Source: an uncultured Candidatus Saccharibacteria bacterium
GTDB taxonomy: Bacteria > Patescibacteriota > Saccharimonadia > Saccharimonadales > JACQNP01
DNA: 63,712 nucleotides
Assembly (NCBI GenBank): GCA_964610775.1
Contig: CAZSZC010000004.1
Location: 1-63,712 of the forward strand
Reading direction: 5' to 3'
Part shown: positions 46,688-63,116 of the stretch, piece after piece
Position numbering within the stretch: the first letter of the stretch is position 1
Layout: each line of letters starts with the position of its first letter
The notes under the pieces: model-generated
What the model was told of the DNA's origin: nothing
Databases searched by the model: none
Seen by the model: the letters and a program-made list of their open reading frames with translations, nothing else
Made by a program: the position numbers and the translations under genes

Positions 46688-47599
46688 ATGCAATTTCAAA
46701 AAGCCAAGGTCGATTTTCTAGAATACTTAGAAATTGAACAGAACCGATCGCAAAAAACCATAGCTAATTATGACCATTATCTTACGAGACTTAGTGATTT
46801 TGCGGGTGATATTAAAGTTTCGGATATAGATCCAGAGCTTATTCGTAAATGGCGACTATGGCTGAATAGACTAGGTACTAACACTAGTGATGAACTGCAA
46901 AAAACAACTCAAAATTATCATCTAATCGCACTCAGAAGTTTTCTGAAATTTTGTGCCAAGCGCAGCATACCGGCCCTGTCTGCCGACAAGATAGAACTGG
47001 CTAGAACCACCAGAAAGCAAGTTACCTTCCTAAATCCCGATGAGTTACAGAGAATGTTTGATCAACCAGACATATCCACCCTCAGTGGCCTAAGAGATCG
47101 AGCGATATTGGAACTGCTTTTTAGTAGTGGGTTGCGTGTTTCAGAACTAGTCGGGCTTGATAGAGATCACATCAATGTCAAACGGCGTGAATTTATGGTT
47201 CGGGGTAAGGGTCAAAAGGATCGCCCGATATTCATAAGCCAAGAAGCGGCTGATTGGGTAACAAAATACCTAGATAAGCGCACCGATACCACCAAACCAC
47301 TATTTATTCGCTACAGTGGACGCAAAACAGTTGATTTGAGTGGTAATTTTCACCGCCTAACCGCGCGTAGCGTACAAAGAATGGTTGCACGCTATGCACT
47401 ACTAGCCGGCATCACTAAACACGTCAGCCCTCACACACTCCGACATTCATTTGCAACTGATTTACTTATGAACGGCGCAGATCTACGCTCAGTCCAAGCT
47501 ATGCTTGGCCACAGCAATATATCAACTACCCAAATATATACTCACGTAACAGATCCACACCTCAAATCGGTTCACGAAAAATTTCACCGCAAAACTTAA
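46688..47599 (+). CDS. Tyrosine recombinase, XerC/D family
   Basis: RDRAILELLFSSGLRVSEL, GKGQK, HTLRHSFAT, LGH, TQIYTH: full catalytic set. Confidence 0.95.
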   Translation: MQFQKAKVDFLEYLEIEQNRSQKTIANYDHYLTRLSDFAGDIKVSDIDPELIRKWRLWLNRLGTNTSDELQKTTQNYHLIALRSFLKFCAKRSIPALSADKIELARTTRKQVTFLNPDELQRMFDQPDISTLSGLRDRAILELLFSSGLRVSELVGLDRDHINVKRREFMVRGKGQKDRPIFISQEAADWVTKYLDKRTDTTKPLFIRYSGRKTVDLSGNFHRLTARSVQRMVARYALLAGITKHVSPHTLRHSFATDLLMNGADLRSVQAMLGHSNISTTQIYTHVTDPHLKSVHEKFHRKT

Positions 47600-47608
47600 A
47601 AACAACCT

Positions 47609-48652
47609 CTACCAATTAGCAGGATCGCAGGTAGCAACCTCGTTAGAGTCAGCACCCGCTGGATTGTTTATTTGTACATCCGATTCCACGCCTGTGTCTG
47701 ATACAAACAACCTCTTACATAGGGAATTGGTTGTTTCGGTAGCATAATTTATATCAGAAATATTATCGGTAAGTGGTACATGTACCACTAATCTTCTTAG
47801 CACATCGCTTGTGCGCCCTGTACTATCTATTTCGCGCTGGGCACCAACAAATTTAACCAAATTATTACTTGCATCCTTGCCCATGATATTGATTTTGGCA
47901 GCTTTATATACCGGCCTAAGTCTTAGGTAAAATTTATCGGTTGGAGCTATGTTTAAATTTGATATCTTGGATGTGCATTTGTATGTACCACCGCCAGCGG
48001 CATCACAATGACCATCAACAAAATTGCCCTTTGTTGTGTAATTATCCGGTAATGGTACAGAATATGTGTCACTACAAGAAGTATCAGAGCTAGGATATAG
48101 CAGCAAGGTTTGCATCTTATCAATAATAGTAGCTCGACCGCCCGAGCTTGGCATTAACATAACTCTTAGAAGTGGATGGTTATTGCCCCAGTCCGATGCA
48201 GTCAATATATTATGCCCGCAACTTGCATTATTTATAGGTACCCCTCCTGTAACGCCTTCCCAACTTATAATTAGTTCCGTTAATGGGTTAGGACCGGCTG
48301 GCTGAATTGGCACAACTATAGATTTACCGTCATTAACACTTGAATAATCTAGTCTCTCTAACTGATCATTTACCAGCACACAGCTTGCACTAACGCTAGG
48401 GTCGCTCCCTAAAGGCACAGGATTAGTGCAGCCACCCGAACCGCCGTGTATAACATCATTAATTCCCGATTCGGCAGCATAGAAGGCCTGAGTATTAAGT
48501 TGCTGGTCTAGGGCCTGTCTTTGTTCTCTATTGGCTAGATTTGCAAAACCCAACGCAATTAGTGTAAGAAGAGACATTATTACTAACGTAGCAACGATCG
48601 ATATTAATCCACTTTCGTTATTAAGTTTTTTAAGCTTTAGCATGTTTTTCAT
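47609..48652 (-). CDS. PilX/K-like minor pilin
   Basis: ESG|LISIV cleavage site without E5; QAFYAAESG. Confidence 0.85.
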   Translation of the reverse strand: MKNMLKLKKLNNESGLISIVATLVIMSLLTLIALGFANLANREQRQALDQQLNTQAFYAAESGINDVIHGGSGGCTNPVPLGSDPSVSASCVLVNDQLERLDYSSVNDGKSIVVPIQPAGPNPLTELIISWEGVTGGVPINNASCGHNILTASDWGNNHPLLRVMLMPSSGGRATIIDKMQTLLLYPSSDTSCSDTYSVPLPDNYTTKGNFVDGHCDAAGGGTYKCTSKISNLNIAPTDKFYLRLRPVYKAAKINIMGKDASNNLVKFVGAQREIDSTGRTSDVLRRLVVHVPLTDNISDINYATETTNSLCKRLFVSDTGVESDVQINNPAGADSNEVATCDPANW

Positions 48653-48656
48653 TGTA

Positions 48657-49349
48657 TCACTGGACCTTTGATGTTCTCTTCATTACTTGGGTTGTTAGAT
48701 ATGAGCTAGCACACCACTGCGATCCCACTACCCCGCCCAAGCAGCCTACTGCTTCATCTGGAGATGTTTCCTCTACTAAATCATTGTCACCGTATATAAC
48801 ACCAATTTTTATTCCAATAGCTCCATTGGACGATAGAGCTACATCAAAATCTCTAAGCCTCATATTGGCCCCTAGCAATTCCCTGCCAGAACCTGACACA
48901 CCACCAGACAAGGAAGGATCGTCATTAGTTAAATCAGCAGCCGGACAGCTGGAGTCATTAGTAGAATCTTGCCATAACGCATGACGAATTTGCCTCTGGC
49001 CCTTATCAATTGAAACTCCATCGGTAACACGAAGATTTTTTACAAAACTAAATCTAGTATTACCTATGCACCTACTCTGAACAACAACAAATGTGTTAGG
49101 AGTAGCCGGATTACCAAATGAAGCACTACCACTTTTGGGCGTACCTGCATCTAGCTGTGCAGATTGACTAACTGATGCCAATGCGTTTCGCGCAGTTTCT
49201 TGAGTATTGATTGTATTTATACCCTTGTAGTACATCTTTCCAATTTGCAAAATTGTCAGCCCGGCTACGAGTACCATCGCCGAAAACGCGGCCATAGAAA
49301 TAAGAAGTTCGATTATGGTGTAGCCATTTTGATTAATCTTAATTCGCAT
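48657..49349 (-). CDS. PilW-like minor pilin
   Basis: NG|YTIIELL prepilin motif. Confidence 0.88.
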   Translation of the reverse strand: MRIKINQNGYTIIELLISMAAFSAMVLVAGLTILQIGKMYYKGINTINTQETARNALASVSQSAQLDAGTPKSGSASFGNPATPNTFVVVQSRCIGNTRFSFVKNLRVTDGVSIDKGQRQIRHALWQDSTNDSSCPAADLTNDDPSLSGGVSGSGRELLGANMRLRDFDVALSSNGAIGIKIGVIYGDNDLVEETSPDEAVGCLGGVVGSQWCASSYLTTQVMKRTSKVQ

Positions 49350-49884
49350 ATAATTTATACTCTACTTTTACTTCTTGTCTCTCACCTCCACCCAATCGGT
49401 CCCAACGAATGCGTACAATAAAAACACCACCAGTTGCATTACCCGGAGGTGTGATTGATACGTTATACAAACCACTAGTACCACCAGATGGGTCAACATC
49501 CCTACACCCGGGAGGATAAGAACTGAATTTATCCAGACTAACGTCGACATTCCAGTCATTTGACGGTGTTGCGAATGGGTTATTTTTGTCTACTGGAAGT
49601 GGTGAATTTGGTGAATTTTTATCAAAACAAAACTGTGGTGTAGTGATAGTCCTTGCTGCATAATCTGCAAAATTACTATTATTGCTAGTTTTTAAAGCCT
49701 TTAGTTGCTCTAATTGACCCTCAGCCAATTTTAGAGCCTCAACTCTTTCTTGGGCATTACGAATACTCTGTTGGGCTCTCACGGCTATTTTATAAGTAAC
49801 CCCCATTACTGAACCAAGAATAACCAAACAAACCAAAACCTCTATTATAGTGTCGCCTCTTTGATCATAATTTCTTATGAACAT
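49339..49884 (-). CDS. PilV-like minor pilin
   Basis: RG|DTIIEVL; ALKLAEGQLE. Confidence 0.88.
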   Translation of the reverse strand: MFIRNYDQRGDTIIEVLVCLVILGSVMGVTYKIAVRAQQSIRNAQERVEALKLAEGQLEQLKALKTSNNSNFADYAARTITTPQFCFDKNSPNSPLPVDKNNPFATPSNDWNVDVSLDKFSSYPPGCRDVDPSGGTSGLYNVSITPPGNATGGVFIVRIRWDRLGGGERQEVKVEYKLYAN

Positions 49885-50720
49885 ATACCGCTCCCTAAAC
49901 CATCTATATTGGGTGTATCAAAAATGACCTCTGTTTTGGCTATACCTGCTCTACCGCCTATCAGTATAGCAGCCTGTCTTTTATCGGAGGCGTCCGTTAA
50001 ACACATCAGAATTCCGCCAGGCCTGTTAACATTTGACGCATCCCATCCATTAACTAAACCATAAGACTTAATATCTGTAGCAAGTTGTTGCCGCGATTCC
50101 GTAAAGGTCGTCCCTCCCATGGGTACAATATCAACCTGGCCTCCGCTAGTGTTCCCTGACAACTTTGACATAACCGCAAAAGCACTCATATTTATTGGGG
50201 TTGATGAGTTAACGACCGTTATCTTATTAACCTTAAGCCCCCATTTGGTTTGGTAAGTCTCTGTTAAATTTGGAATAGCGGCATCATTGGTGTCGGGCGC
50301 TACAGCAGTAGGTGTTGCTTCTGCTATTGTTTGAGAATTATGTCCATTAACCTGTCGCTTACCAACTACAGTTAGTGTGTCAATTAAATCACGGTTAGCT
50401 GAACTTCCATTGGCTGCAATTACTTTACCCAAGAACACACAATCCTTCCGAGTGCCCTGTTGAGTGCCACCATTTGCCTCAATTTTTATGCTGTTAGTGT
50501 TATCAACGTAACATTTTATATCACTGCTTGGAAAATAACCCGTTGATACATCATTAATAACATCCTGAATTTTATTATCCAGGTCACGAACTGATTCAGA
50601 AAATCGTACATTATCTTGCCTACCAATAAAAGTTGGTACTATAAGTGCAAACAAAACACCACTGACTGCCAAAAAAATCAATGACTCCAAAATTGTATAG
50701 CCTGCGCTAGGGCGCTTCAT
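49875..50720 (-). CDS. FimT/GspH-like minor pilin
   Basis: AG|YTILESL prepilin motif. Confidence 0.85.
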   Translation of the reverse strand: MKRPSAGYTILESLIFLAVSGVLFALIVPTFIGRQDNVRFSESVRDLDNKIQDVINDVSTGYFPSSDIKCYVDNTNSIKIEANGGTQQGTRKDCVFLGKVIAANGSSANRDLIDTLTVVGKRQVNGHNSQTIAEATPTAVAPDTNDAAIPNLTETYQTKWGLKVNKITVVNSSTPINMSAFAVMSKLSGNTSGGQVDIVPMGGTTFTESRQQLATDIKSYGLVNGWDASNVNRPGGILMCLTDASDKRQAAILIGGRAGIAKTEVIFDTPNIDGLGSGICS

Positions 50721-50753
50721 AAGGATAAGTATAACATAAGCACATTGATTCTA

Positions 50754-51596
50754 TCAGGGATAGATGAGGTTCTTATACAGGTTAATCATACTCGATCCGT
50801 TAAGTACTACTATATAGGTAGCAAGTAGCAAAAAAGGTCCGAACGGTATATGTATATTCTTCTTATATTTGCCAACAATCAGTAATAACAATGCATAGGC
50901 ACACCCAAGCAGCGAAGCCATAAATAGCATCAACATCGAGTTGATTGGTGTTAGCAATAAAAGACCGAGAGGAAAGCCTAGCTTAACATCACCACCACCT
51001 ATCCATTTACCATCCGAAATCTGATATAAGACATAAAACAGGCCACCCGAAACGAGAATAGCAAGCACAAGTTGAAAGACGGTGCTCAATGGATTGTCGG
51101 ATTTTACTATATATAGTCCGGCATAAAATATCGCGATGATTGAGAATATTTTTACAAGCCTATCGGGCAAAAGCATCCACTTAAAGTCATATACAGACAA
51201 TGCTACCCCAACAACCGTGGCAGATAAGAACATTCCGATCTGAATAATACCGAATGACCAACTGTCTAAATTACTAGGCCACGATAAATATACAACCACG
51301 AAAAGCAAAGCAGTTAACATTTCTACCGACGGATACTGCCAAGAGATGGGTTTACTGCAATACCTGCATTTGCCACCCAGTGTCAGCCAACTTATAACTG
51401 GAAGAAGATCTTTTGTAGAGAGAGTGTGTTTGCAATTAGGACACATGGAACGTCCACTTACGACCGATATCTCTTTATCGCTAGCAGCTCTCTTTTTCTT
51501 TGGTTTCGACTGTTCATGTATGCGCCACACAAGCGCATTCACAAAACTACCGAAACACACACCCAGCACAAAAAAAATGACAATTAATAAATCCAT
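50754..51596 (-). CDS. pilD: Prepilin peptidase
   Basis: GSFVN, RSMCPNC, GKCRYC, catalytic YD and GGGD, IPFGPFL. Confidence 0.96.
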   Translation of the reverse strand: MDLLIVIFFVLGVCFGSFVNALVWRIHEQSKPKKKRAASDKEISVVSGRSMCPNCKHTLSTKDLLPVISWLTLGGKCRYCSKPISWQYPSVEMLTALLFVVVYLSWPSNLDSWSFGIIQIGMFLSATVVGVALSVYDFKWMLLPDRLVKIFSIIAIFYAGLYIVKSDNPLSTVFQLVLAILVSGGLFYVLYQISDGKWIGGGDVKLGFPLGLLLLTPINSMLMLFMASLLGCAYALLLLIVGKYKKNIHIPFGPFLLLATYIVVLNGSSMINLYKNLIYP

Positions 51597-51645
51597 TTTT
51601 GTATCTTACCGTAATTGCCAGCAATACCCCAAGATTAAAGTGCTG

Positions 51646-52212
51646 CTAGTTACCAGAAACACAGTAAATAGCGCCACCCTCGAGTTTTGCCATAAGAATA
51701 TAATCATTAGTGCTTCCGGCTACAGCGCTCTCACCGCTGCAACTATATCCATTTTTGTAGTAAATTAACTTGGTTTGATTTGGTGGACCTACTGCAGCTA
51801 CCTCGGCGTTGATTGAAGCTGCATCAGGCTGAAGTGAGTAAACAATTCTAGAATTTTCACCGGACAGTGGATCGGTTATGTTAACTTCACAGGCATCGAA
51901 TAGGTCGGCGTTGTAAACAATATTCCACCAGTTAGTTGACCCCACACAGCCCAAATAGCGATCCATAAAGCCAACCATGCCGGCAAGGTTCGTGGGAATC
52001 TTTCCACCATTATTACCTTTATAACTACCTATTTCTGTAGACATTCTATTAACCACACTCTTCCTAGCTGTATTCCTCTGGTTCCTCTGTAGCTGAGGGA
52101 TTGCAATAAGCACAATCACCAAGATCAATGCTGCAATAGCAAGCACAATCAAGACTTCAATAATAGTGAAGCCTTCATTTCTTTTTTTAATATCAGTTAG
52201 TTTACGTAGCAT
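51646..52212 (-). CDS. pilA: Type IV major pilin, copy 2
   Basis: EG|FTIIEVLIVLAIAALIL; ATG at 52212. Confidence 0.92.
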   Translation of the reverse strand: MLRKLTDIKKRNEGFTIIEVLIVLAIAALILVIVLIAIPQLQRNQRNTARKSVVNRMSTEIGSYKGNNGGKIPTNLAGMVGFMDRYLGCVGSTNWWNIVYNADLFDACEVNITDPLSGENSRIVYSLQPDAASINAEVAAVGPPNQTKLIYYKNGYSCSGESAVAGSTNDYILMAKLEGGAIYCVSGN

Positions 52213-52224
52213 TTGCAAATGCCC
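52067..52224. repeat. 158-bp exact direct repeat (pilin 5' end), copy A
   Basis: Identical to 52755-52912 (offset 688). Confidence 0.97.
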
Positions 52225-52333
52225 ACCCAGCATAGCTATTTTATAATCAATATATGGATTGATTATAGCACGTCATATAATAAATAAAGCGAGATAAACT
52301 CGCTCTATTTATTAGCATTAGATAAAGCTTATT

Positions 52334-52900
52334 CTAATGATTGTCTAGACAGTATCTTGCACCACCCTCTAGTGGAATTACTAGAGCGTAGTTCCTGCCA
52401 CTAGCTCCAGTTGTAGTTACGTTTTCTGGTGCTGCTGGGTCACACACATAGCCAACATAGTAGCCCATGTCATCTGTTGTAGTTGGTGTGTTAGGTGGAT
52501 AGGCGGCGGCGGTTGGAGCGGTAGCTACGTTTGCCGCAACAGGGGTATAAGGTTTACCGGTGCTTGGGTTATTAATATTAGTGGAACAAGTTGTGGCGCC
52601 CGTACAACCAAGATATCTGTTGAAGAAACCTGTTGTTGCTGGTGTTCCAAGATTATTGTTTCCAGCCGCAACGCTAGCAACGGGTAATTGGCCATTGTTG
52701 TTACCAGCATAGCTACTTATTTCCGTTGCAATTCTAGAACCTACATCCTTACGGGCTGTATTCCTCTGGTTCCTCTGTAGCTGAGGGATTGCAATAAGCA
52801 CAATCACCAAGATCAATGCTGCAATAGCAAGCACAATCAAGACTTCAATAATAGTGAAGCCTTCATTTCTTTTTTTAATATCAGTTAGTTTACGTAGCAT
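52334..52900 (-). CDS. pilA: Type IV major pilin, copy 1
   Basis: EG|FTIIEVL; TTGCAA-17-TATCAT promoter (52946-52974). Confidence 0.93.
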   Translation of the reverse strand: MLRKLTDIKKRNEGFTIIEVLIVLAIAALILVIVLIAIPQLQRNQRNTARKDVGSRIATEISSYAGNNNGQLPVASVAAGNNNLGTPATTGFFNRYLGCTGATTCSTNINNPSTGKPYTPVAANVATAPTAAAYPPNTPTTTDDMGYYVGYVCDPAAPENVTTTGASGRNYALVIPLEGGARYCLDNH

Positions 52901-52912
52901 TTGCAAATGCCC
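52755..52912. repeat. 158-bp exact direct repeat, copy B
   Basis: Identical to 52067-52224. Confidence 0.97.
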
Positions 52913-52978
52913 CCTTTGCATTTATTGTTTAACGCTTATGTTTAGATGATATACACTACTATGACAATTTGCAATAGT

Positions 52979-54199
52979 TTATTTACCGAAGCCACTCTGT
53001 CCAACTAGCCCATAAATCGGCATCATGATCGCCGCTACAAGACCAAACGCTACTACTCCTAGTACTACCATCATAACTGGCTCAATTATTGTCGAGATAG
53101 TTTTAATTTGATTATCCACTTCCTTTTCGTAATAGTCAGCCGTCTTGCCCAACATTTGTTCTATAGAACCTGATTCTTCACCGATTTTAAGCATATTTGG
53201 CACCAGATCCAGGAAGTTTGGGTCACCTGATATAGAATCAGATAACGCCTTCCCACCCTTTACCTTCTCGGTAGCTTTCTTAACAGACTCTTCGATATGA
53301 AGATTATTGACCGATTTACCGACAATCTCAAGTGTCTGAATTAGTGGAACGCCTGCCGCAACTAACGTTTCTGAAGTCCTAGCAAAACGAGCCATATACA
53401 TTTTCATGAACAATGGTCCAACAGGCCAAGCTTTCATCTTGAATTTATCTATGTAGCGCTTGCCTCCCAGAGTTCGGGCCCAACGCGTCAAGAAGAAACC
53501 TAGAACAACTACTACAATTAGTTCTATCCACCAATATTTACGGGTAAACGCCGAGAAGGCTAGGAGCGCCTTAGTTATAAACGGCAACTTGGCGCCCTTT
53601 ATACCCTTATAGACTTCTTCTACTTGTGGCAAAACTTTCAAAACCATAAAGCCAATTACGAAAACCATAACTAACAAAACAACGGCTGGATAGACCATAG
53701 CGCCACGAACTTTACTAATAATCTCGGCGTCCTTTTCTTGCTGATCAGCTATCCTTGCCAAAGATTTATCGAGCGTACCAGAAGTCTCACCGGCAGCTAC
53801 AAGGTTAATGAAAACCGGGTCAAATACTAATGGATGCTTGGCCAAGCCTTCCGAAAAAGCTTTACCTGCCTCCACGTCTGTAATTACTTCGTTTATTACT
53901 ATTTGAAAATTCTTGTTAGTAGTTTGATTGGAAACGTTGCGTAAACTTTGAACAAGCGGCAGACCAGCATTAATCAGTGTAGATAGCTGGCGCGAAAACA
54001 ATACCTTGTCTTTGGTTTTGACACGCTTAAAAAATTTGCCGCCAGGCACACCTTTCTCGCCTTGTGCTTTGATGTCAAGTAGGGCCAAGCCATTTTGTTT
54101 GACCAACTTAGCAGCTGCTCGCTCATCGGCAGCCTGGACCTGAGACTTTACCTTCTCACCTGTTTTAGGATCACGAGCCGTATATTGATAAGTAAGCAT
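52979..54199 (-). CDS. pilC: T4P platform protein (PilC/GspF)
   Basis: FSRQLSTLINAGLPL, AGETSGTL, AMVYP, IGEESG, IEP. Confidence 0.97.
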   Translation of the reverse strand: MLTYQYTARDPKTGEKVKSQVQAADERAAAKLVKQNGLALLDIKAQGEKGVPGGKFFKRVKTKDKVLFSRQLSTLINAGLPLVQSLRNVSNQTTNKNFQIVINEVITDVEAGKAFSEGLAKHPLVFDPVFINLVAAGETSGTLDKSLARIADQQEKDAEIISKVRGAMVYPAVVLLVMVFVIGFMVLKVLPQVEEVYKGIKGAKLPFITKALLAFSAFTRKYWWIELIVVVVLGFFLTRWARTLGGKRYIDKFKMKAWPVGPLFMKMYMARFARTSETLVAAGVPLIQTLEIVGKSVNNLHIEESVKKATEKVKGGKALSDSISGDPNFLDLVPNMLKIGEESGSIEQMLGKTADYYEKEVDNQIKTISTIIEPVMMVVLGVVAFGLVAAIMMPIYGLVGQSGFGK

Positions 54200-54200
54200 T

Positions 54201-55274
54201 TTAGCCTCGCATTAACCTTTCGAGTTCATCAAGATCAACAGCGTAATTCCGAGCCTCTTCGTAGCTAATAGTACCGTTATGAATTAATCCAACTAGTGTT
54301 TTATCCATTGAAGCCATACCGAACTCGGCACCCGTCTGAATAACTGCTTCGAGCTGATGGCTCTTGCCTTCGCGAATAATATTTCGTACAGCCGGAGTTG
54401 CAATCATAATCTCTGCAGCCGCGACACGCCCGCCACCGATCATTGGTACTAAACGCTGCGAACAAATAGCCATAAGGATATTAGCTAACTGAGCCCTAAT
54501 TTGTGGCTGTTGATGAGGTGGGAATACGTCAATCATACGGTCAATACTCTGGGCGGCTGAGTTAGTATGCAAAGTGGCAAAAACTAAGTGACCAGTTTCA
54601 GCAATCGTAATAGCTGCGGCTATTGTTTCTAGGTCGCGCATTTCTCCAATTAGCACTACGTCTGGGTCTTGTCGCAAACTACTACGAAGTGCAGCGGAAA
54701 ACGAATAGGTATCATAATGGACTTCTCTCTGCACAATAACCGACTTAATAGATTTATGCGTAAACTCAATAGGATCTTCAATAGTTACAATATGTGTTGC
54801 TCGTTCAACGTTAATCTTGTGAACTAAAGCTGCTAAAGATGTTGATTTACCTGAACCCGTCGGTCCCGTAACCAGCACAAGACCACGAGGATAATCAGCA
54901 AACTTGCTAACTATTGTCGGTAATCCTAGTTGTTCAATAGTAAGTATCTCGCTAGGTATCAAACGCAAAGCTGCTGCCAAATTGCCACGTTCATGAAACG
55001 CATTAACACGGAACCTACCGAGGTCACCAAAGGCAAAACTAAAGTCAAACTCTTTGTCTTTTAGTAGTATTTGCTTTTGATCATCATCCAAAATGGCGAA
55101 TATTAACGTTTCTACCGTTTCTTCGGTGAGTGCTTCGTTACCCGCAACTGGCGTCAAGGATCCATCGACGCGTAACATAGGTGGCAAGCCAACCTGTAGG
55201 TGAAGATCAGAGGCCTTGCGCTTGATGACCTCTTCTAAAAGGATTTCTATTCTTGGTTGTGATTGTGATGCCAC
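54201..55274 (-). CDS. pilT: T4P retraction ATPase
   Basis: ASDLHL, GPTGSGKST, EDPIE, RQDPD, ETGH, TLHT; GTG at 55274 with a GAGGGA SD. Confidence 0.96.
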   Translation of the reverse strand: MASQSQPRIEILLEEVIKRKASDLHLQVGLPPMLRVDGSLTPVAGNEALTEETVETLIFAILDDDQKQILLKDKEFDFSFAFGDLGRFRVNAFHERGNLAAALRLIPSEILTIEQLGLPTIVSKFADYPRGLVLVTGPTGSGKSTSLAALVHKINVERATHIVTIEDPIEFTHKSIKSVIVQREVHYDTYSFSAALRSSLRQDPDVVLIGEMRDLETIAAAITIAETGHLVFATLHTNSAAQSIDRMIDVFPPHQQPQIRAQLANILMAICSQRLVPMIGGGRVAAAEIMIATPAVRNIIREGKSHQLEAVIQTGAEFGMASMDKTLVGLIHNGTISYEEARNYAVDLDELERLMRG

Positions 55275-55296
55275 CCTTATTCCCTCGCTTACCTTT

Positions 55297-57075
55297 CTAT
55301 GCTTCTGCTGCCGCGACACGATTAACTTCTTGTAGTGTTGTCTGCCCTGCTAAAGCTTTTAAATACCCGTCCTGACGCATACTAACCATACCCTGCTCAG
55401 CTTGCGCAACCTTTTGAATTTCAGTACTGGTTGCACGTTTGATGATAAGATCCTGAATGGCTTCTGATACCTCAAAAACCTCATACAGACCCATTCTTCC
55501 TTTGTAACCGCCAGGTGCATCAGGCGTGTCTTTGCCCTTGTACAAAGTATAAGCGTTTTGACCCATAAGAGGCAAGTCCTCATAGCCTAAGTCTTTTGAG
55601 ACATCCACAACCTCTTCTTGTGTAGTGGGTAATAAACCAGCTAGATTTGAATGAATTGCTTCTACTTCGTTTGCATCCGATTGGTATTGTTCCTTGTCGG
55701 TGCCTATTCGCCGAACAAGGCGCTGACCAATTACAGTATGTACGGTACTAGCTATTAAAAATGGCTCAATACCCATATCAAGTAGACGAGGCAAGATACC
55801 CGCTGCCGAATTAGTGTGAAGTGTAGAAAACACCAAATGCCCAGTCAAGGCCGCCTGGACAGCCAATGTAGCTGTCTCGCGATCACGAATTTCCCCGACC
55901 ATTACAACGTCAGGGTCCTGACGCAAAATCGAACGTAGGCCATTGGCAAAAGTCAGTCCAACCTCATTATTAACCTGAATCTGGTTTATGCCAGCCATTT
56001 TATATTCGACAGGGTCTTCTAGGGTAACAATATTGATTTCGTCATTCATAATTTCCTGAATAAGAGCATAAAGAGAAGTTGATTTACCTGATCCAGTTGG
56101 ACCCGACGTTAGGATCATGCCATTTGGACGCTCTAAGCCTTTACGAATCGTCCTAAGGGCGCGGCCATGATAGCCCATGTCCTCTAACTTAAGGCTGGTA
56201 CCCGACTTATCCAGTAGACGAATAACCACCTGCTCTCCCCATACAACTGGAGAAATTGCTATACGAAGATCAATATCCTTATCTAAAACCTTAATAGTAA
56301 ACTGTCCGTCCTGGGGAACGCGATGCTCATCTATCTTTAGAGTTGCCAATATCTTAATACGCGATACCAGTGGCGCCTCTGTACTCTTAGGTAGCTTCAT
56401 AATCTCGCGCAACACACCATCAATCCTACAGCGTATTTTAAGTACTTTCTCTAGAGGCTCGATATGTATATCACTAGCTCGATTATTAGCAGCATACTCC
56501 AATATTGCTGACAGAGCTTTACTTATTGGCGAATCCTGAACGATCGTTTTGATGTTCTTTTCTTTGCCCTTAGGACCCTGTAGCTCTTCAACGACATCAG
56601 GAGCAAGTGCATCAGTAACTTCTTCACCAATCTGAGTTTGATATTGTTTAAGCACATTCCTTATACCGTCTTCACTAGCCGCATAAACTTTTAGGGGTCG
56701 ACCAATCTTATTTGATAAAAAATCTACAGCCTGAACATTGTCGGCATCAAGCATACCAACAACTAGACGGTTCTGCATTTCGCCTAACGGCACTGCCATA
56801 TAGTGCTCTGCAATGTCTTGAGGCAGCAAAGCCAGAATATTTTCATCAACGAAAGCGTTGCTAAGATTTACATAAGGTACATGGTTGATCTCAGCTAGAA
56901 TTTTGGTCAACAACTCACTTGTTATGTGACCATCACTAACAAGTAAGGTTAGAAACGGCGTACCTTCAGTATCCGCCTTTTTATGTGCCTCAGCTAACTC
57001 GTTCTCGGTTATGTAGCCACCTTTAATAAGTTCCTGCTCCACATTTGACTGTGTTTCGGCAGATAAGACGCTCAC
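55297..57075 (-). CDS. pilB: T4P assembly ATPase (PilB/GspE)
   Basis: ASDIHIEP, PQDG, GPTGSGKS, EDPVE, RQDPD, GEIRD, TLHTN. Confidence 0.97.
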   Translation of the reverse strand: MSVLSAETQSNVEQELIKGGYITENELAEAHKKADTEGTPFLTLLVSDGHITSELLTKILAEINHVPYVNLSNAFVDENILALLPQDIAEHYMAVPLGEMQNRLVVGMLDADNVQAVDFLSNKIGRPLKVYAASEDGIRNVLKQYQTQIGEEVTDALAPDVVEELQGPKGKEKNIKTIVQDSPISKALSAILEYAANNRASDIHIEPLEKVLKIRCRIDGVLREIMKLPKSTEAPLVSRIKILATLKIDEHRVPQDGQFTIKVLDKDIDLRIAISPVVWGEQVVIRLLDKSGTSLKLEDMGYHGRALRTIRKGLERPNGMILTSGPTGSGKSTSLYALIQEIMNDEINIVTLEDPVEYKMAGINQIQVNNEVGLTFANGLRSILRQDPDVVMVGEIRDRETATLAVQAALTGHLVFSTLHTNSAAGILPRLLDMGIEPFLIASTVHTVIGQRLVRRIGTDKEQYQSDANEVEAIHSNLAGLLPTTQEEVVDVSKDLGYEDLPLMGQNAYTLYKGKDTPDAPGGYKGRMGLYEVFEVSEAIQDLIIKRATSTEIQKVAQAEQGMVSMRQDGYLKALAGQTTLQEVNRVAAAEA

Positions 57076-59870: not shown

Positions 59871-62800
59871 TTAGAAAACTGGTGGCAAGTTATTAACTGA
59901 GTCGTAGGTTCCCGTCGTATTAGATGAGCTAGCACTCCAAACCGTTTGCTGCACATATATCTCTGGGCTGAAATTAAAGACTTCGGAAATGTTACTATCA
60001 CTTGATGGTTCGGCACCCGAAGCGGGAGCGGAAATAACATCCTCGCATAACCAATTATCGCCCCATGTTCCGTCATGATTATCAGGACCACCAATTGCGG
60101 CCGAATCTGATGGTTCGCTGATGCGTACACACCTTACCTGTTTGCCATTGCTTGGATCTCCTGTTATTTGGTTAGTCCCTTGCCAAGTATTATTTGGTGA
60201 CACCATAACCGAATTTGCCCATCCAGGAGCGGAAGAATTAAGTGAAGCCGCACCCGGGAAAGGTTTTGGACCACCATAATAAAACTTTAAGTTATGTCCG
60301 GCTGCATTGTTGTAGCACAAATAATTATCTTCCCAGCTAGTGGCATTGGTATAAGGAGGCGTATTATCTACAAGCCACTCTGTTGGTTCTTTAAACATTA
60401 CGCAGGTCTTACCATTGCCCCTTGGATCACTTATTTCTTCTTTGTAGTTCTCGTTCAAAGTATTCGGAGTAGTGCCAGTAATTTTGAGATTATTAATACT
60501 CGTGAACGCTGTCATAAACGGAACCCACTCCAAACCATAGCGACTAACTGCGCCAGGATCCGTACATAGCCCGTTATCATGCCATGTACCTCTTGACGCC
60601 CAGTCACTACCCTCTTCGATACGTATACAATCAGCTGATATTGGTGAAGGTGCAGGCACAATCGAACCGAACGTGAAATTAAAGTTTGTATCGGGATTTG
60701 CTAGGCCATTACTCAATGAACCGTTTGTTCGAAGCAGCTTTACTTCCTTGGCTATGAATGATCCATTAACCGTCAATTTATTAGCACACCCATTTGCACC
60801 ACTAATAGCCATTAGATTTCCGGCTATTTGTGAATTGCCATTTGCACAGGTAATTATCTTGCCTTTGCTACCGTCTGATAGTGGCTGAGCTATATATAAG
60901 CCATCTAGTTGAGCTGTCTGATTATCTATGTATATGTTCCCTTTAACAATAAGTGTGAAGTTTGGCGCGTTGTCTATACTGCCAAAATTAGCGTAAATTA
61001 TATTGCCAGCAATAACTGCGTCACCGTTCACATATACCGTGTGTTTTTTGTTATTGGCTAAAGTTGCGGTATTGATCGTTACATAGCTATTGCCAGCCGA
61101 CGGACTTACATAGCTGATTGTGGCACCATTGCCATTCTGGTCACCGGCAGTAATGCCGCCAGGAGTAACGCTTGATACCTGCGCACCAGAACCAGGAATA
61201 GTGTTCCTGCTGAAATAGTCAGGTATACAGCTACCAAGCCCACCTTGTCCGCCGTAATCTGACTTAAGAGTTTTAACACTTCCGACGATATTGGTATTGG
61301 CAAATGTCTGATCATTCAACGCATCACCAGCCTTCATACCAGAACTAGGCACCTCCTGAATCACGCCAAGAGCAAATAAGCCAAACTGCGCCCCAGTACC
61401 ACGCATATAGTCATAGCTTGCTCCGCCCTTATTAAAGCCTCTAAAAGTAGCATTGCCGCTTGGTGACGAGCATTGTGATGTCCCATCATCAAATCCGTAC
61501 CCCACTGCAGCATCATTCCCGTAGACTTTATAGTAAGGCATACGTCCAGCTTTTTTGCTATTAGAACAACGAAGCGTTGCATAAAAATTTGAACCAGATT
61601 GATAATAATCATACGGTCCACCTGCATTATGATTATTGCGTAGCCCATTAAGTAAGTCGGAGTCTGCAGGTGCAACCCATTGTATTCGCCAAACAATATT
61701 ATAAGTACCCGGACTCGTAAAAGTTAAATTGAATGCCGCAACTTCATTACTTATAGTTGAGCCTCCCGGTATAGGCTGAGCATTTAAATTTATTGGAGTA
61801 TTGCCGTTTGCAAAGTATCTATTGCTAACCGTAGCAACCCGAGTTCCGTCTGGCACATCAAGTCCTATGTCGTTATGCACGGCAATACCTGACGACCCTG
61901 GTGAGTAATTAAAGTTGGCTCTTGCATCGAATGGAGTATTTACCTCTATATCCCCACTAGGTGTTGTTGCGATGGAACCACATTGAGGCATCGCACATGG
62001 ACCAATCGTTACCACACCAAGACGCACCTGTCCCTCGACAGAGCCATTGGATCTTTTGTCAACTACATTAATAATAAAGTCATGTCTATAGGCATCATTA
62101 TATCTGGCTATATCAGCCGTAGGCACCATCCACCAATCATGAAATGCAGCCGGAGGTCCTGGCCCAACCGGAACGCCAGGTGCCGAGTTGTTAGCGCCAT
62201 AAGTCCCAATAAATGCCAGATCCGTTAGTGCGGGTGGACCAGGTGTCCCCTTCGCTCTTTTGTCCATATATACCTGTACTTCCGTAGGATAATAATCTAG
62301 ATCTTGAGCATAGCCTTTAATTGCAACATCTTGATTCCTGCCCGTAGTTGTATCAAACGGCCCTAAGTTACAACTGGCACCTTGAATGCTACCCCAGGGA
62401 TCGACATAGATTTGAATGTCACGCGATATCGTTCCTTCTTCGCATGGATTAAAATCCCAGCCATTTGTACTTACAAACGATTGTTGTATACATCTATACC
62501 CTGTAGGGGCATTCCCTGGGTTAGTTATATTATTAATAGCCCTGACTCGAAATCGTATGCGTATTTTTCGTATAGAATCAATCCCTTGTCCCGGGTTTGG
62601 ATGATATTGGAAATCATCAACTGACGCCCTGTAATCACCCTGTGTAGGACCACCATTATTAAGCGTAACGACGCTACCAGCGCCAATATTATCTATATAA
62701 CCGGCACTACTCCCATCTGTTCCATCTGGATTTACATAAACAACATCAACACTCATAATCTTTAGTCGTGATTCTGGCACTTCGTTTAAGTTCTGACAGA

Positions 62801-63116
62801 CTGCACTAGCCCAGTTAAAGTTCAAATCGACTGTCTGAGCGCCATATGTAACTGTTGTTTCGTCAGACCCATTCGCCCCAAATACACCAACCCAATATCT
62901 GAATGCTGGCGAGATACCATAATTCAAGTAATTACAGTTCTCTAGCTGATCTTTTTCGTATGCTGGTATGCCATATGGGGGAGGTCCAGTATTATTTACA
63001 AGCGGTGGATTCGGGTTGAGTCCAAATGCTGCAGCTTTTTTGGTTCCAAAAAAAACAACAAATCCAAACGCAATAACTAATACAAGTAGGAGTTTTAGCG
63101 AACGATTATGGACCAT
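59871..63116 (-). CDS. Large secreted Cys-rich T4P-associated adhesin candidate, 1081 aa
   Basis: Signal peptide ending KAAA; PilX-C-like NGSFIAKEVKLLRT..SEVFNFSPE; three CxxxxE..WxDNxLC repeats. Confidence 0.8.
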   Translation of the reverse strand: MVHNRSLKLLLVLVIAFGFVVFFGTKKAAAFGLNPNPPLVNNTGPPPYGIPAYEKDQLENCNYLNYGISPAFRYWVGVFGANGSDETTVTYGAQTVDLNFNWASAVCQNLNEVPESRLKIMSVDVVYVNPDGTDGSSAGYIDNIGAGSVVTLNNGGPTQGDYRASVDDFQYHPNPGQGIDSIRKIRIRFRVRAINNITNPGNAPTGYRCIQQSFVSTNGWDFNPCEEGTISRDIQIYVDPWGSIQGASCNLGPFDTTTGRNQDVAIKGYAQDLDYYPTEVQVYMDKRAKGTPGPPALTDLAFIGTYGANNSAPGVPVGPGPPAAFHDWWMVPTADIARYNDAYRHDFIINVVDKRSNGSVEGQVRLGVVTIGPCAMPQCGSIATTPSGDIEVNTPFDARANFNYSPGSSGIAVHNDIGLDVPDGTRVATVSNRYFANGNTPINLNAQPIPGGSTISNEVAAFNLTFTSPGTYNIVWRIQWVAPADSDLLNGLRNNHNAGGPYDYYQSGSNFYATLRCSNSKKAGRMPYYKVYGNDAAVGYGFDDGTSQCSSPSGNATFRGFNKGGASYDYMRGTGAQFGLFALGVIQEVPSSGMKAGDALNDQTFANTNIVGSVKTLKSDYGGQGGLGSCIPDYFSRNTIPGSGAQVSSVTPGGITAGDQNGNGATISYVSPSAGNSYVTINTATLANNKKHTVYVNGDAVIAGNIIYANFGSIDNAPNFTLIVKGNIYIDNQTAQLDGLYIAQPLSDGSKGKIITCANGNSQIAGNLMAISGANGCANKLTVNGSFIAKEVKLLRTNGSLSNGLANPDTNFNFTFGSIVPAPSPISADCIRIEEGSDWASRGTWHDNGLCTDPGAVSRYGLEWVPFMTAFTSINNLKITGTTPNTLNENYKEEISDPRGNGKTCVMFKEPTEWLVDNTPPYTNATSWEDNYLCYNNAAGHNLKFYYGGPKPFPGAASLNSSAPGWANSVMVSPNNTWQGTNQITGDPSNGKQVRCVRISEPSDSAAIGGPDNHDGTWGDNWLCEDVISAPASGAEPSSDSNISEVFNFSPEIYVQQTVWSASSSNTTGTYDSVNNLPPVF

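What the first reader, a model, noticed from the sequence alone, without database searches (positions are those of the whole stretch)
51646..52974. Two major pilins with an exact 158-bp shared 5' block and unrelated heads
Seen: 52067-52224 = 52755-52912, including all synonymous sites and 12 nt of UTR; the C-terminal domains are unrelated. Known: pilin N-helices are conserved at protein level, and Neisseria varies pilin by recombination. Inference: recent gene conversion or a switch in which recombination between the direct repeats deletes 688 bp and puts head 2 under the strong pilA1 promoter. This could alter host attachment in an epibiont.
Basis: partly seen in the sequence, partly recalled or inferred. 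Interest (0 to 1): 0.62.

Follow-up and report, generated by a model that had tools for sequence, protein, structure and literature searches.

The report
Tandem pilin genes homogenised by gene conversion
Two neighbouring genes for the main pilus subunit of an ultrasmall Saccharibacteria-type bacterium keep their front ends letter-identical by copying between the genes, and the same repeat probably lets some strains lose one gene; this is a clean case of a known process, not a new switch.

Summary
52067-52224 and 52755-52912 are an exact 158-nt direct repeat, offset 688, present only twice in the 887-kb genome. It covers 12 nt of leader RNA and codons 1-48 of two adjacent minus-strand type IV prepilin genes. 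These lie between pilC and pilD in a locus with the gene content of Saccharibacteria T4P locus one.

The heads are not unrelated: 34% identity, E 6e-19, same length and same four-Cys framework.

A related lineage (~96% identity) carries the same tandem with its own exact repeat of 172 nt. Both of its copies share the same five synonymous differences from the window. That is concerted evolution by gene conversion. Relatives with tandem pilins show normal synonymous divergence.

Two low-coverage assemblies of that lineage show pilC-repeat-head 2(-pilD), the form expected from the predicted 688-bp deletion. One is identical over 590 nt to a tandem contig from a sister sample.

A programmed switch is not supported. 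Both genes are complete, each has its own promoter-like site, a terminator-like hairpin separates them, and no dedicated recombinase or conserved site was found.

The parts
55297..57075 (-). pilB-type assembly ATPase
   Evidence: Pfam T2SSE 2.3e-122 plus MshEN
54201..55319 (-). pilT-type retraction ATPase
   Evidence: Pfam T2SSE 3.9e-51, 372 aa
52979..54199 (-). pilC platform protein
   Evidence: Pfam T2SSF 9.2e-61
52946..52974 (-). promoter-like site of the upstream pilin gene (TTGCAA-17-TATCAT) in the 66-nt leader region 'U'
   Evidence: consensus scan, 9 of 12. U is conserved in lineage B and in the outgroup L048
52755..52912 (-). repeat copy R-up: 12 nt of 5' UTR plus codons 1-48 of pilA-up
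   Evidence: exact 158-nt identity with 52067-52224
52334..52900 (-). pilA-up, 188-aa prepilin with head 1 (Thr/Pro/Ala-rich, GAST 43.5%)
   Evidence: N_methyl PF07963 5.1e-07. TIGR02532. Head-1 family relatives are 41-50% identical. AF2 pLDDT 79, helix 17-67 plus beta strands
52279..52313 (-). terminator-like hairpin AATAAATAGAGCGAG-TTTAT-CTCGCTTTATTTATT after pilA-up
   Evidence: 16-bp stem; spacer folds at -32 kcal/mol, z -4.7. The stem was also found by the scan
52262..52270 (-). extended -10-like TGCTATAAT in front of pilA-down
   Evidence: read from the sequence; not tested for function
52067..52224 (-). repeat copy R-down
   Evidence: exact identity with 52755-52912
52036..52066 (-). 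31-nt patch just 3' of R-down. It has the ancestral head-2-type sequence in the window; in lineage B the first 14 nt have been overwritten by pilA-up sequence
   Evidence: 11 of 31 nt differ between lineages, against 0.8% in the rest of head 2. The outgroup L048 matches the window's version
51646..52212 (-). pilA-down, 188-aa prepilin with head 2
   Evidence: N_methyl 4.9e-07. Nearest other head is P0018, 46%. AF2 pLDDT 77
50754..51596 (-). pilD prepilin peptidase
   Evidence: Pfam A24_N_bact 9.8e-30 and Peptidase_A24 4.9e-12
47609..50720 (-). four further pilin-like genes (49875-50720, 49339-49884, 48657-49349, and PilX_N-type 47609-48652)
   Evidence: G[FY]T(I/L)(I/L)E starts. N_methyl over the cut-off for 48657-49349, below it for 49339-49884, none for 49875-50720; PilX_N for 47609-48652

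Best explanation
The locus encodes two complete, separately promoted major-pilin paralogues of the T4P-1-type pilus. They have the same leader peptide and alpha1-N helix and different, homologous globular heads. The identical 158-nt 5' module is kept identical by repeated homologous (RecA-type) gene conversion between the tandem copies. Conversion can act there because protein-level constraint keeps the two N-terminal modules similar enough to pair. Tracts stop where the heads diverge. The ancestral state in this genus was a single head-2-type pilin behind pilC. The head-1 gene, whose relatives sit in more distant Saccharibacteria, was added upstream and now carries the resident N-terminal module. 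The same direct repeats are a substrate for a one-way 688-bp deletion that removes head 1, the terminator-like hairpin and the second promoter-like site, and leaves head 2 behind the pilC-proximal leader. This is a by-product of the repeat, not a dedicated switch. Shown: the exact repeat, head homology, the concerted pattern between lineages, the differing tract ends, and the polarity from the outgroup. Inferred: the RecA mechanism, co-expression of both pilins, and the reality of the deletion form.
For: The repeat is exact and occurs twice only. Lineage B contig L045 has the same tandem (offset 688) with its own exact repeat of 172 nt. The five A/B differences in the block are all synonymous (codons 25, 26, 29, 31, 45) and are present in both copies. 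So paralogues are identical within each genome while the lineages differ by 3.2% in the block. For the site nearest the 3' end (52766/52078), copy-specific sequence lies 12-28 nt away, so the linkage cannot be an assembly collapse. Outgroup L048 (~77-80% nt identity) has one head-2-type pilin directly behind pilC and the conserved leader. After the N block it reads GCTAGGAAA...AATAGAATGTCTACAGAAATAGG, like the window's pilA-down. So in lineage B the 14 nt after R in pilA-down were converted from pilA-up. Relatives with tandem pilins show 40-58% codon differences at amino-acid-identical N-helix positions. Each head is closer to pilins of other organisms (head 1 to P0002, 49%; head 2 to P0018, 46%) than to the other head (32-35%). 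The N module of pilA-up (AIAALILVIVLIAIPQLQRNQRNTARK) is of the resident type seen in P0018, not of the head-1 family type. recA is present. Deletion form: L046=L044 runs pilC-U-R-head 2-pilD. It is identical over 590 nt to the tandem contig L047 but has a different upstream sequence. L039 shows the same U-R-head 2 join.
Against: Perfect identity in any single assembly could therefore hide rare differences. The two 'deleted' contigs are short; L046 is at k-mer coverage 1.7 and the coverage of L039 is not known, so they may be mis-joins through the 172-nt repeat. A-B divergence is mosaic: head 2 0.8%, spacer 0.9%, R 3.2%, pilD 6.1%. The tandem may therefore have moved between lineages by recombination, and the order and timing of events are uncertain. 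Expression of both genes rests only on consensus-like motifs.
Confidence: 0.8

Rival explanations
1. A selected on/off or antigenic switch. Recombination between the repeats deletes 688 bp so that cells change from head 1 (or head 1 plus head 2) pili to head 2 pili. This would change host attachment, and the system would be maintained for that purpose.
For: The predicted product (pilC-U-R-head 2-pilD) exists in assembly L046/L044 and partly in L039. L046 is nt-identical over 590 nt to a tandem contig of the same strain from a sister sample, as expected for a frequent, recent event. In TM7x the equivalent locus makes an essential pilus (PMC11623550), so pilin choice could matter.
Against: A deletion is irreversible without re-acquisition of DNA. 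pilA-down is not silent: it has its own RBS-like sequence, TGCTATAAT and a preceding terminator-like hairpin. No invertase or dedicated recombinase was found; the only tyrosine recombinase nearby is Xer-like and lies 4 kb away. The 9-nt palindrome in R is not conserved in relatives. No G-quadruplex motif is visible in the leader. Both 'deleted' contigs may be mis-joins; L046 is at coverage 1.7.
Confidence: 0.12
2. No ongoing conversion. The identity reflects a very recent single event that created the tandem, for example Campbell-type insertion of a circular or transformed fragment carrying R + head 1 + spacer, or a fresh partial duplication.
For: A single crossover of a 688-bp circle [R-head 1-spacer] into a single-pilin gene gives exactly this structure. 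Single head-2-type loci exist (L048). The pilin region is less diverged between lineages than pilD, which fits recent movement.
Against: Two lineages share the same tandem with the same 5' junction and the same 688 offset. They nevertheless differ at five sites in both copies, and their identical tracts end at different points, 158 vs 172 nt. One insertion event cannot give that without later conversion. In lineage B, pilA-up sequence has replaced ancestral pilA-down sequence just 3' of R.
Confidence: 0.05
3. Assembly artefact. The two copies differ slightly in reality and were collapsed to one consensus, or strain variants were stitched into a false tandem.
For: The repeat is longer than the k-mers common assemblers use. 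The same-genus genome G001 has a 100-N gap exactly at its pilin. Contigs of other samples break at the repeat.
Against: The unique spacer joins the head-1 stop to R-down, and the tandem is the only linear path that uses all pieces. The tandem was assembled independently in JGI 3300045377 (L045) and ERZ724528 (L047). Logan k=31 contigs L040 and L041 stop exactly 30 nt (k-1) into R, as expected for a true repeat with two entries. All five variable sites lie within 53-104 nt of copy-specific sequence.
Confidence: 0.03

Closest known systems
Concerted evolution of duplicated bacterial genes by RecA-dependent gene conversion (the textbook case is tufA/tufB of Salmonella and E. coli, from my own knowledge; kinetics reviewed in PMC5485169, seen and not read)
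   Same: Paralogues in one genome are more alike than orthologues between lineages. Tracts have variable ends. No dedicated machinery is needed.
   Different: Only the 5' module (leader plus alpha1-N helix) is homogenised, while the heads stay 32-35% identical. The copies are tandem direct repeats, so deletion is a side reaction.
Neisseria pilE/pilS pilin antigenic variation (from my own knowledge)
   Same: A type IV major pilin with a constant N-terminal region and variable head. RecA-dependent non-reciprocal recombination. Deletions between repeated pilin sequences give variants.
   Different: There, silent promoterless, 5'-truncated cassettes donate head segments to one expression locus with the help of a G4 element. 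Here both genes are complete and separately promoted, the converted part is the constant region, and no G4 motif is visible.
Tandem major-pilin paralogues in other bacteria, such as Legionella pneumophila PilA1/PilA2 (PMC13170364, abstract seen), and from my own knowledge Pseudomonas stutzeri pilAI/pilAII and Thermus thermophilus PilA4/PilA5
   Same: Two related major-pilin genes share one assembly machinery, sometimes side by side.
   Different: A letter-identical 5' module with population evidence for concerted evolution is not part of those descriptions, as far as I know.
Saccharibacteria T4P-1 (locus one) of Nanosynbacter lyticus TM7x (PMC11623550)
   Same: Same gene content (PilB, PilT, PilC, PilM/N/O-like, PilD, several pilins), with the major pilin between pilC and pilD.
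   Different: The TM7x description has one pilA1 in locus one. No tandem pilA1 pair or recombination is mentioned ('tandem' and 'recombination' each occur 0 times in the text). Orthology to TM7x genes was not tested here.
Moraxella bovis/lacunata Q/I pilin inversion (Piv) and the R64 shufflon (Rci), from my own knowledge
   Same: One constant pilin N-terminal coding region is combined with alternative C-terminal coding regions by DNA rearrangement.
   Different: Those use inverted repeats and a dedicated site-specific recombinase. Here the repeats are direct, no such recombinase or conserved core site was found, and the rearrangement would be a one-way deletion.

Membership tests
Type IV (class III signal peptide) pilin | Short basic leader ending in Gly, then Phe+1 and Glu+5, with a hydrophobic alpha1-N helix | tested here: met
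   Both genes read MLRKLTDIKKRNEG|FTIIEVLIVLAIAALILVIVLIAI. Pfam N_methyl is over its cut-off (29.5 and 29.4 bits vs 21.2), as is TIGR02532
Type IV (class III signal peptide) pilin | Prepilin peptidase and assembly genes in the same locus | tested here: met
   pilD is directly downstream (A24_N_bact, Peptidase_A24). pilC, pilT, pilB and pilM lie upstream
Type IV (class III signal peptide) pilin | Lollipop fold: long alpha1 helix packed on a beta sheet, with a disulfide-bonded C-terminal region | tested here: inconclusive
   AF2 models (pLDDT 79 and 77) give helix 17-67 plus 4-6 strands, and each head has four Cys. Foldseek against the PDB found no match with E below 0.3
Major (rather than minor) pilin of the T4P-1-type locus | Small pilin between pilC and pilD; highest expression; forms the filament | not testable with these tools
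   The position matches the single pilin of most relatives checked.
Concerted evolution by interlocus gene conversion | Paralogues within a genome are more similar than orthologues between lineages over a bounded tract | tested here: met
   0 of 158 (window) and 0 of 172 (L045) differences within genomes, against 5 shared synonymous differences between lineages in both copies
Concerted evolution by interlocus gene conversion | Tract ends vary between lineages; a derived sequence is copied from one paralogue into the other | tested here: met
   158 vs 172 nt. In lineage B, pilA-down carries pilA-up's GCCCGTAAGGATGTAG where the outgroup and the window have GCTAGGAA...
Neisseria-type pilE/pilS cassette system | Silent, promoterless, 5'-truncated donor cassettes | tested here: not met
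   Both genes have an ATG, leader peptide, RBS-like sequence and promoter-like motifs
Neisseria-type pilE/pilS cassette system | G-quadruplex-forming element upstream of the expression locus | tested here: not met
   The 66-nt leader and the 109-nt spacer printed each hold a single G run of three or more, not the four a G4 motif needs
Site-specific pilin switch (Piv inversion, Rci shufflon) | Dedicated recombinase plus conserved core sites, with inverted repeats | tested here: not met
   The repeats are direct and no inverted repeats were found in 50000-55000. The nearest recombinase is Xer-like (XerC 257 bits, XerD 253 bits). The 9-nt palindrome in R scores 2-8 of 9 in relatives, so it is a codon coincidence

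The most novel reading that the evidence does not exclude
The 688-bp unit (N module + head 1 + terminator-like hairpin + promoter-like site) behaves as a portable head cassette. It would be lost by recombination between the identical N modules and regained, or swapped for other heads, by natural transformation and recombination in the same modules. Populations of this episymbiont would then shuffle the surface of their essential pilus, and possibly their host range or phage exposure, at strain level.
Probability: 0.12. Interest if true: 0.6.

Novelty: new member of a known kind. Interest (0 to 1): 0.36.

Why it matters
The T4P-1-type pilus is essential in cultivated Saccharibacteria and drives motility on the host (PMC11623550). 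This locus shows how its major subunit can diversify: a constant assembly module is kept identical by gene conversion, while whole heads are added, and probably lost, at strain level. That gives a concrete, testable example of pilin repertoire change in an episymbiont. It also warns that such loci break or mis-join in short-read metagenome assemblies. The mechanism itself is standard homologous recombination.

Tried and rejected
2. Exact look-ups of the two 188-aa pilins found nothing outside the window's own record. The related alleles came from cluster members.
4. Cluster look-ups of PilC and PilD gave no further strain variants.
5. A site-specific recombination site was considered and rejected. 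The imperfect 9-nt palindrome AAGGCTTCA-N7-TGAAGTCTT in R is made of the codons for EGF..EVL and is not conserved in 35 relatives' pilins. The neighbouring tyrosine recombinase is Xer-like.
6. Foldseek of both AF2 models against the PDB gave no significant match.
7. Pfam ComEC (PF03772) was not found in the genome, so I make no claim about competence in this organism.
8. A literature search for concerted evolution of pilin paralogues found nothing specific.
9. The idea that the single-pilin contigs show the ancestral state was rejected. They carry pilA-up-derived sequence just 3' of R that the outgroup lacks, so they derive from a tandem or from an assembly of one.

Full report
**Observation.**
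The window holds an exact 158-nt direct repeat, 52067-52224 = 52755-52912, offset 688. At that offset the next longest identical run is 8 nt. A search of the whole 887-kb, 25-contig genome finds only these two copies. Both lie on the minus strand at the 5' ends of two adjacent ORFs. The likely starts are the ATGs at 52900 and 52212, each 12 nt inside the repeat and each preceded by a G-rich RBS-like run. Both products have 188 aa and begin MLRKLTDIKKRNEG|FTIIEVL, a class III (prepilin) signal. Both pass Pfam N_methyl and TIGR02532.

**Locus.**
On the minus strand the order is:
- a 1081-aa protein without Pfam hits;
- pilM, then two small genes;
- pilB, pilT and pilC;
- pilA-up (52334-52900) and pilA-down (51646-52212);
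- pilD, three pilin-like genes and a PilX_N protein.

This is the gene content described for T4P locus one of Nanosynbacter lyticus TM7x. That locus makes the essential thick pilus linked to twitching (PMC11623550). I did not test orthology to TM7x genes.

**The heads are related.**
- Residues 51-188 align at 34% identity, E 6e-19.
- In a 16-member alignment both fit one framework with four Cys: RYLGC...C..NI.DP.TG...Y..G..C.GE...LEGGA.YC. Variation is concentrated in loops.
- AF2 models (pLDDT 79 and 77) give a long helix (residues 17-67) followed by beta strands.
- Foldseek against the PDB found nothing significant.
- Head 1 is richer in Gly/Ala/Ser/Thr (43.5% vs 34.1%).

**Is the identity more than protein constraint gives?**
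In 40 relatives of the same order, the 30 loci examined mostly show one major pilin followed by pilD and the first minor pilin. Three genomes (G020, G024, G026) have tandem major pilins. In those three, 15/38, 19/37 and 18/31 amino-acid-identical N-helix codons are spelled differently, and the longest exact matches in their N blocks are 16-23 nt. In the window, 0 of 48 codons differ.

**Related strains.**
Exact-protein and cluster look-ups brought in contigs of a lineage about 96% identical to the window, here called B.

L045 (JGI 3300045377) carries the same tandem with the same 688 offset and the same 5' repeat boundary. Its own exact repeat is 172 nt. Lineage B differs from the window at five positions of the block. 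All five are synonymous (codons 25, 26, 29, 31, 45), and both B copies carry all five. So the two copies are identical within each genome but differ between lineages. That is the signature of concerted evolution.

For the site nearest the 3' end (52766/52078), copy-specific sequence lies only 12-28 nt away, so the linkage holds for any assembler k-mer. The other four sites lie 53-71 nt from the 3' end of the block and 86-104 nt from its 5' end.

An outgroup contig, L048 (Logan SRR34539590, 77-80% nt identity), has a single head-2-type pilin (P0018) directly behind pilC and the conserved leader. Just after the N block it reads like the window's pilA-down. Three things follow:
- The ancestral state was one head-2-type gene.
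- The extra 14 nt of identity in lineage B were copied from pilA-up into pilA-down.
- Conversion tracts end at different points in the two lineages.

Each head is closer to pilins of other organisms than to its neighbour: head 1 to P0002 at 49%, head 2 to P0018 at 46%, against 32-35% between the two heads. The N module of pilA-up is of the resident type seen in P0018, not the type of the head-1 family. pilA-up is therefore a resident front end joined to a head whose relatives lie further away. recA is present.

**The deletion form.**
L046 (identical to L044; ENA ERZ724514, 1317 nt, coverage 1.7) runs pilC, leader U, the repeat, head 2, pilD, with one pilin only. L039 (JGI 3300045378) shows the same join and ends inside head 2.

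L047 (ERZ724528) runs head 1, spacer, repeat, head 2. L046 and L047 are identical over their whole 590-nt overlap from the repeat start, yet have different upstream sequence. The same strain thus appears in both arrangements.

Because the single form carries the pilA-up-derived 14 nt, it is secondary and not ancestral. It is what the predicted 688-bp deletion would give. However, both single-form contigs are short, the repeat exceeds usual k-mer sizes, and L046 is at very low coverage. Missing junction k-mers there could produce the same join. I put the reality of the deletion form at about 0.6.

**Mosaic divergence.**
Window against L045:

| Segment | Divergence |
|---|---|
| repeat (each copy) | 3.2% |
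| head 1 | 2.7% |
| spacer | 0.9% |
| 31-nt patch after R-down | 35% |
| rest of head 2 | 0.8% |
| pilD | 6.1% |

The locus has a history of recombination between lineages as well as within genomes, so I do not date the events.

**Not a programmed switch.**
- pilA-up has a promoter-like TTGCAA-17-TATCAT (52974-52946).
- The spacer holds a 16-bp hairpin with flanking A and T runs (52313-52279; spacer fold z -4.7).
- The hairpin is followed by TGCTATAAT (52270-52262). pilA-down is thus a complete gene with its own signals, not a silent cassette.
- No inverted repeats occur in 50000-55000.
- The nearest recombinase (46688-47599) is Xer-like.
- The 9-nt palindrome inside the repeat is a codon coincidence that relatives do not keep.
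- No G4 motif is visible in the leader.
- A deletion is also one-way.

**Assembly artefact for the window itself.**
This is unlikely. The unique spacer links head 1 to the second repeat copy. The tandem was assembled independently in two other datasets (L045, L047). Logan k=31 contigs L040 and L041 end exactly 30 nt into the repeat, as expected when a true repeat has two entries.

**Comparison with known systems.**
This is concerted evolution of a constant module between tandem paralogues, as known for duplicated bacterial genes. It occurs in a setting, the constant N-terminus and variable head of type IV pilins, that is classic for recombination (Neisseria pilE/pilS, the Moraxella Q/I inversion, shufflons). 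It fails the defining features of those dedicated systems. Earlier notes of this scan describe similar homogenised modules in other Patescibacteria pilin-like gene pairs. These are unchecked leads and did not enter the argument.

**Verdict.**
Gene conversion is well supported. A 688-bp deletion variant is probable but unproven. A programmed switch is not supported. This is a new member of a known kind, of moderate to low interest.

Noticed in passing
L051 (G001:C25) 2847-2946, the same-genus genome: The sister species' locus reads pilC, conserved leader, pilin start MLNRLTELKKRNEGF, then exactly 100 N that end inside pilD. Its major-pilin region is an unresolved gap (or masked stretch) that starts about 45 nt into the N block. 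That would fit a repeat there too.
   Followed up: partly
L039 around position 1960 (window equivalent 52870-52876): The A7 run in the leader-peptide codons (GATATTAAAAAAAGAAATG) is A6 in this JGI contig, which would frameshift the only pilin seen there. This is either an assembly or sequencing error or slippage at a homopolymer. L039 also has a private C>A at the equivalent of 52831.
   Followed up: no
L042 (Logan SRR13287419), start = window 52078: This contig is 100% identical to the window. It ends 12 nt into the repeat, exactly at the G/A site that separates the two lineages, instead of the 30 nt (k-1) expected from the repeat end. This may hint at a co-existing repeat variant in that sample.
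   Followed up: no
window 52036-52066: The 31 nt after R-down differ at 11 positions between lineages, while the rest of head 2 differs by 0.8%. Only the first 14 nt are explained by conversion from pilA-up. The next codons (AAT AGA vs GCC AGG) match neither copy.
   Followed up: partly
window 46688-47599 (+): A Xer-like tyrosine recombinase (XerC 257 bits, XerD 253 bits, both below the equivalog cut-offs) sits directly beside the last gene of the pilus cluster. No link to the pilin repeat was found.
   Followed up: partly
own genome, all contigs: Pfam ComEC 'Competence' (PF03772) has no match at E <= 0.001 in this 97%-complete genome, although Saccharibacteria are reported to be naturally competent. 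recA is present at C5:10259-11041.
   Followed up: no
window 59871-63116 (-): A 1081-aa ORF directly upstream of pilM has no Pfam match at all. Another first-reader note flags it as a putative pilus adhesin.
   Followed up: no
own genome C9:37590-37796 (+): A third, weakly similar pilin N-terminus (32% identity, E 1.2e-7) lies elsewhere in the genome. The genome may also encode a second pilus type.
   Followed up: no
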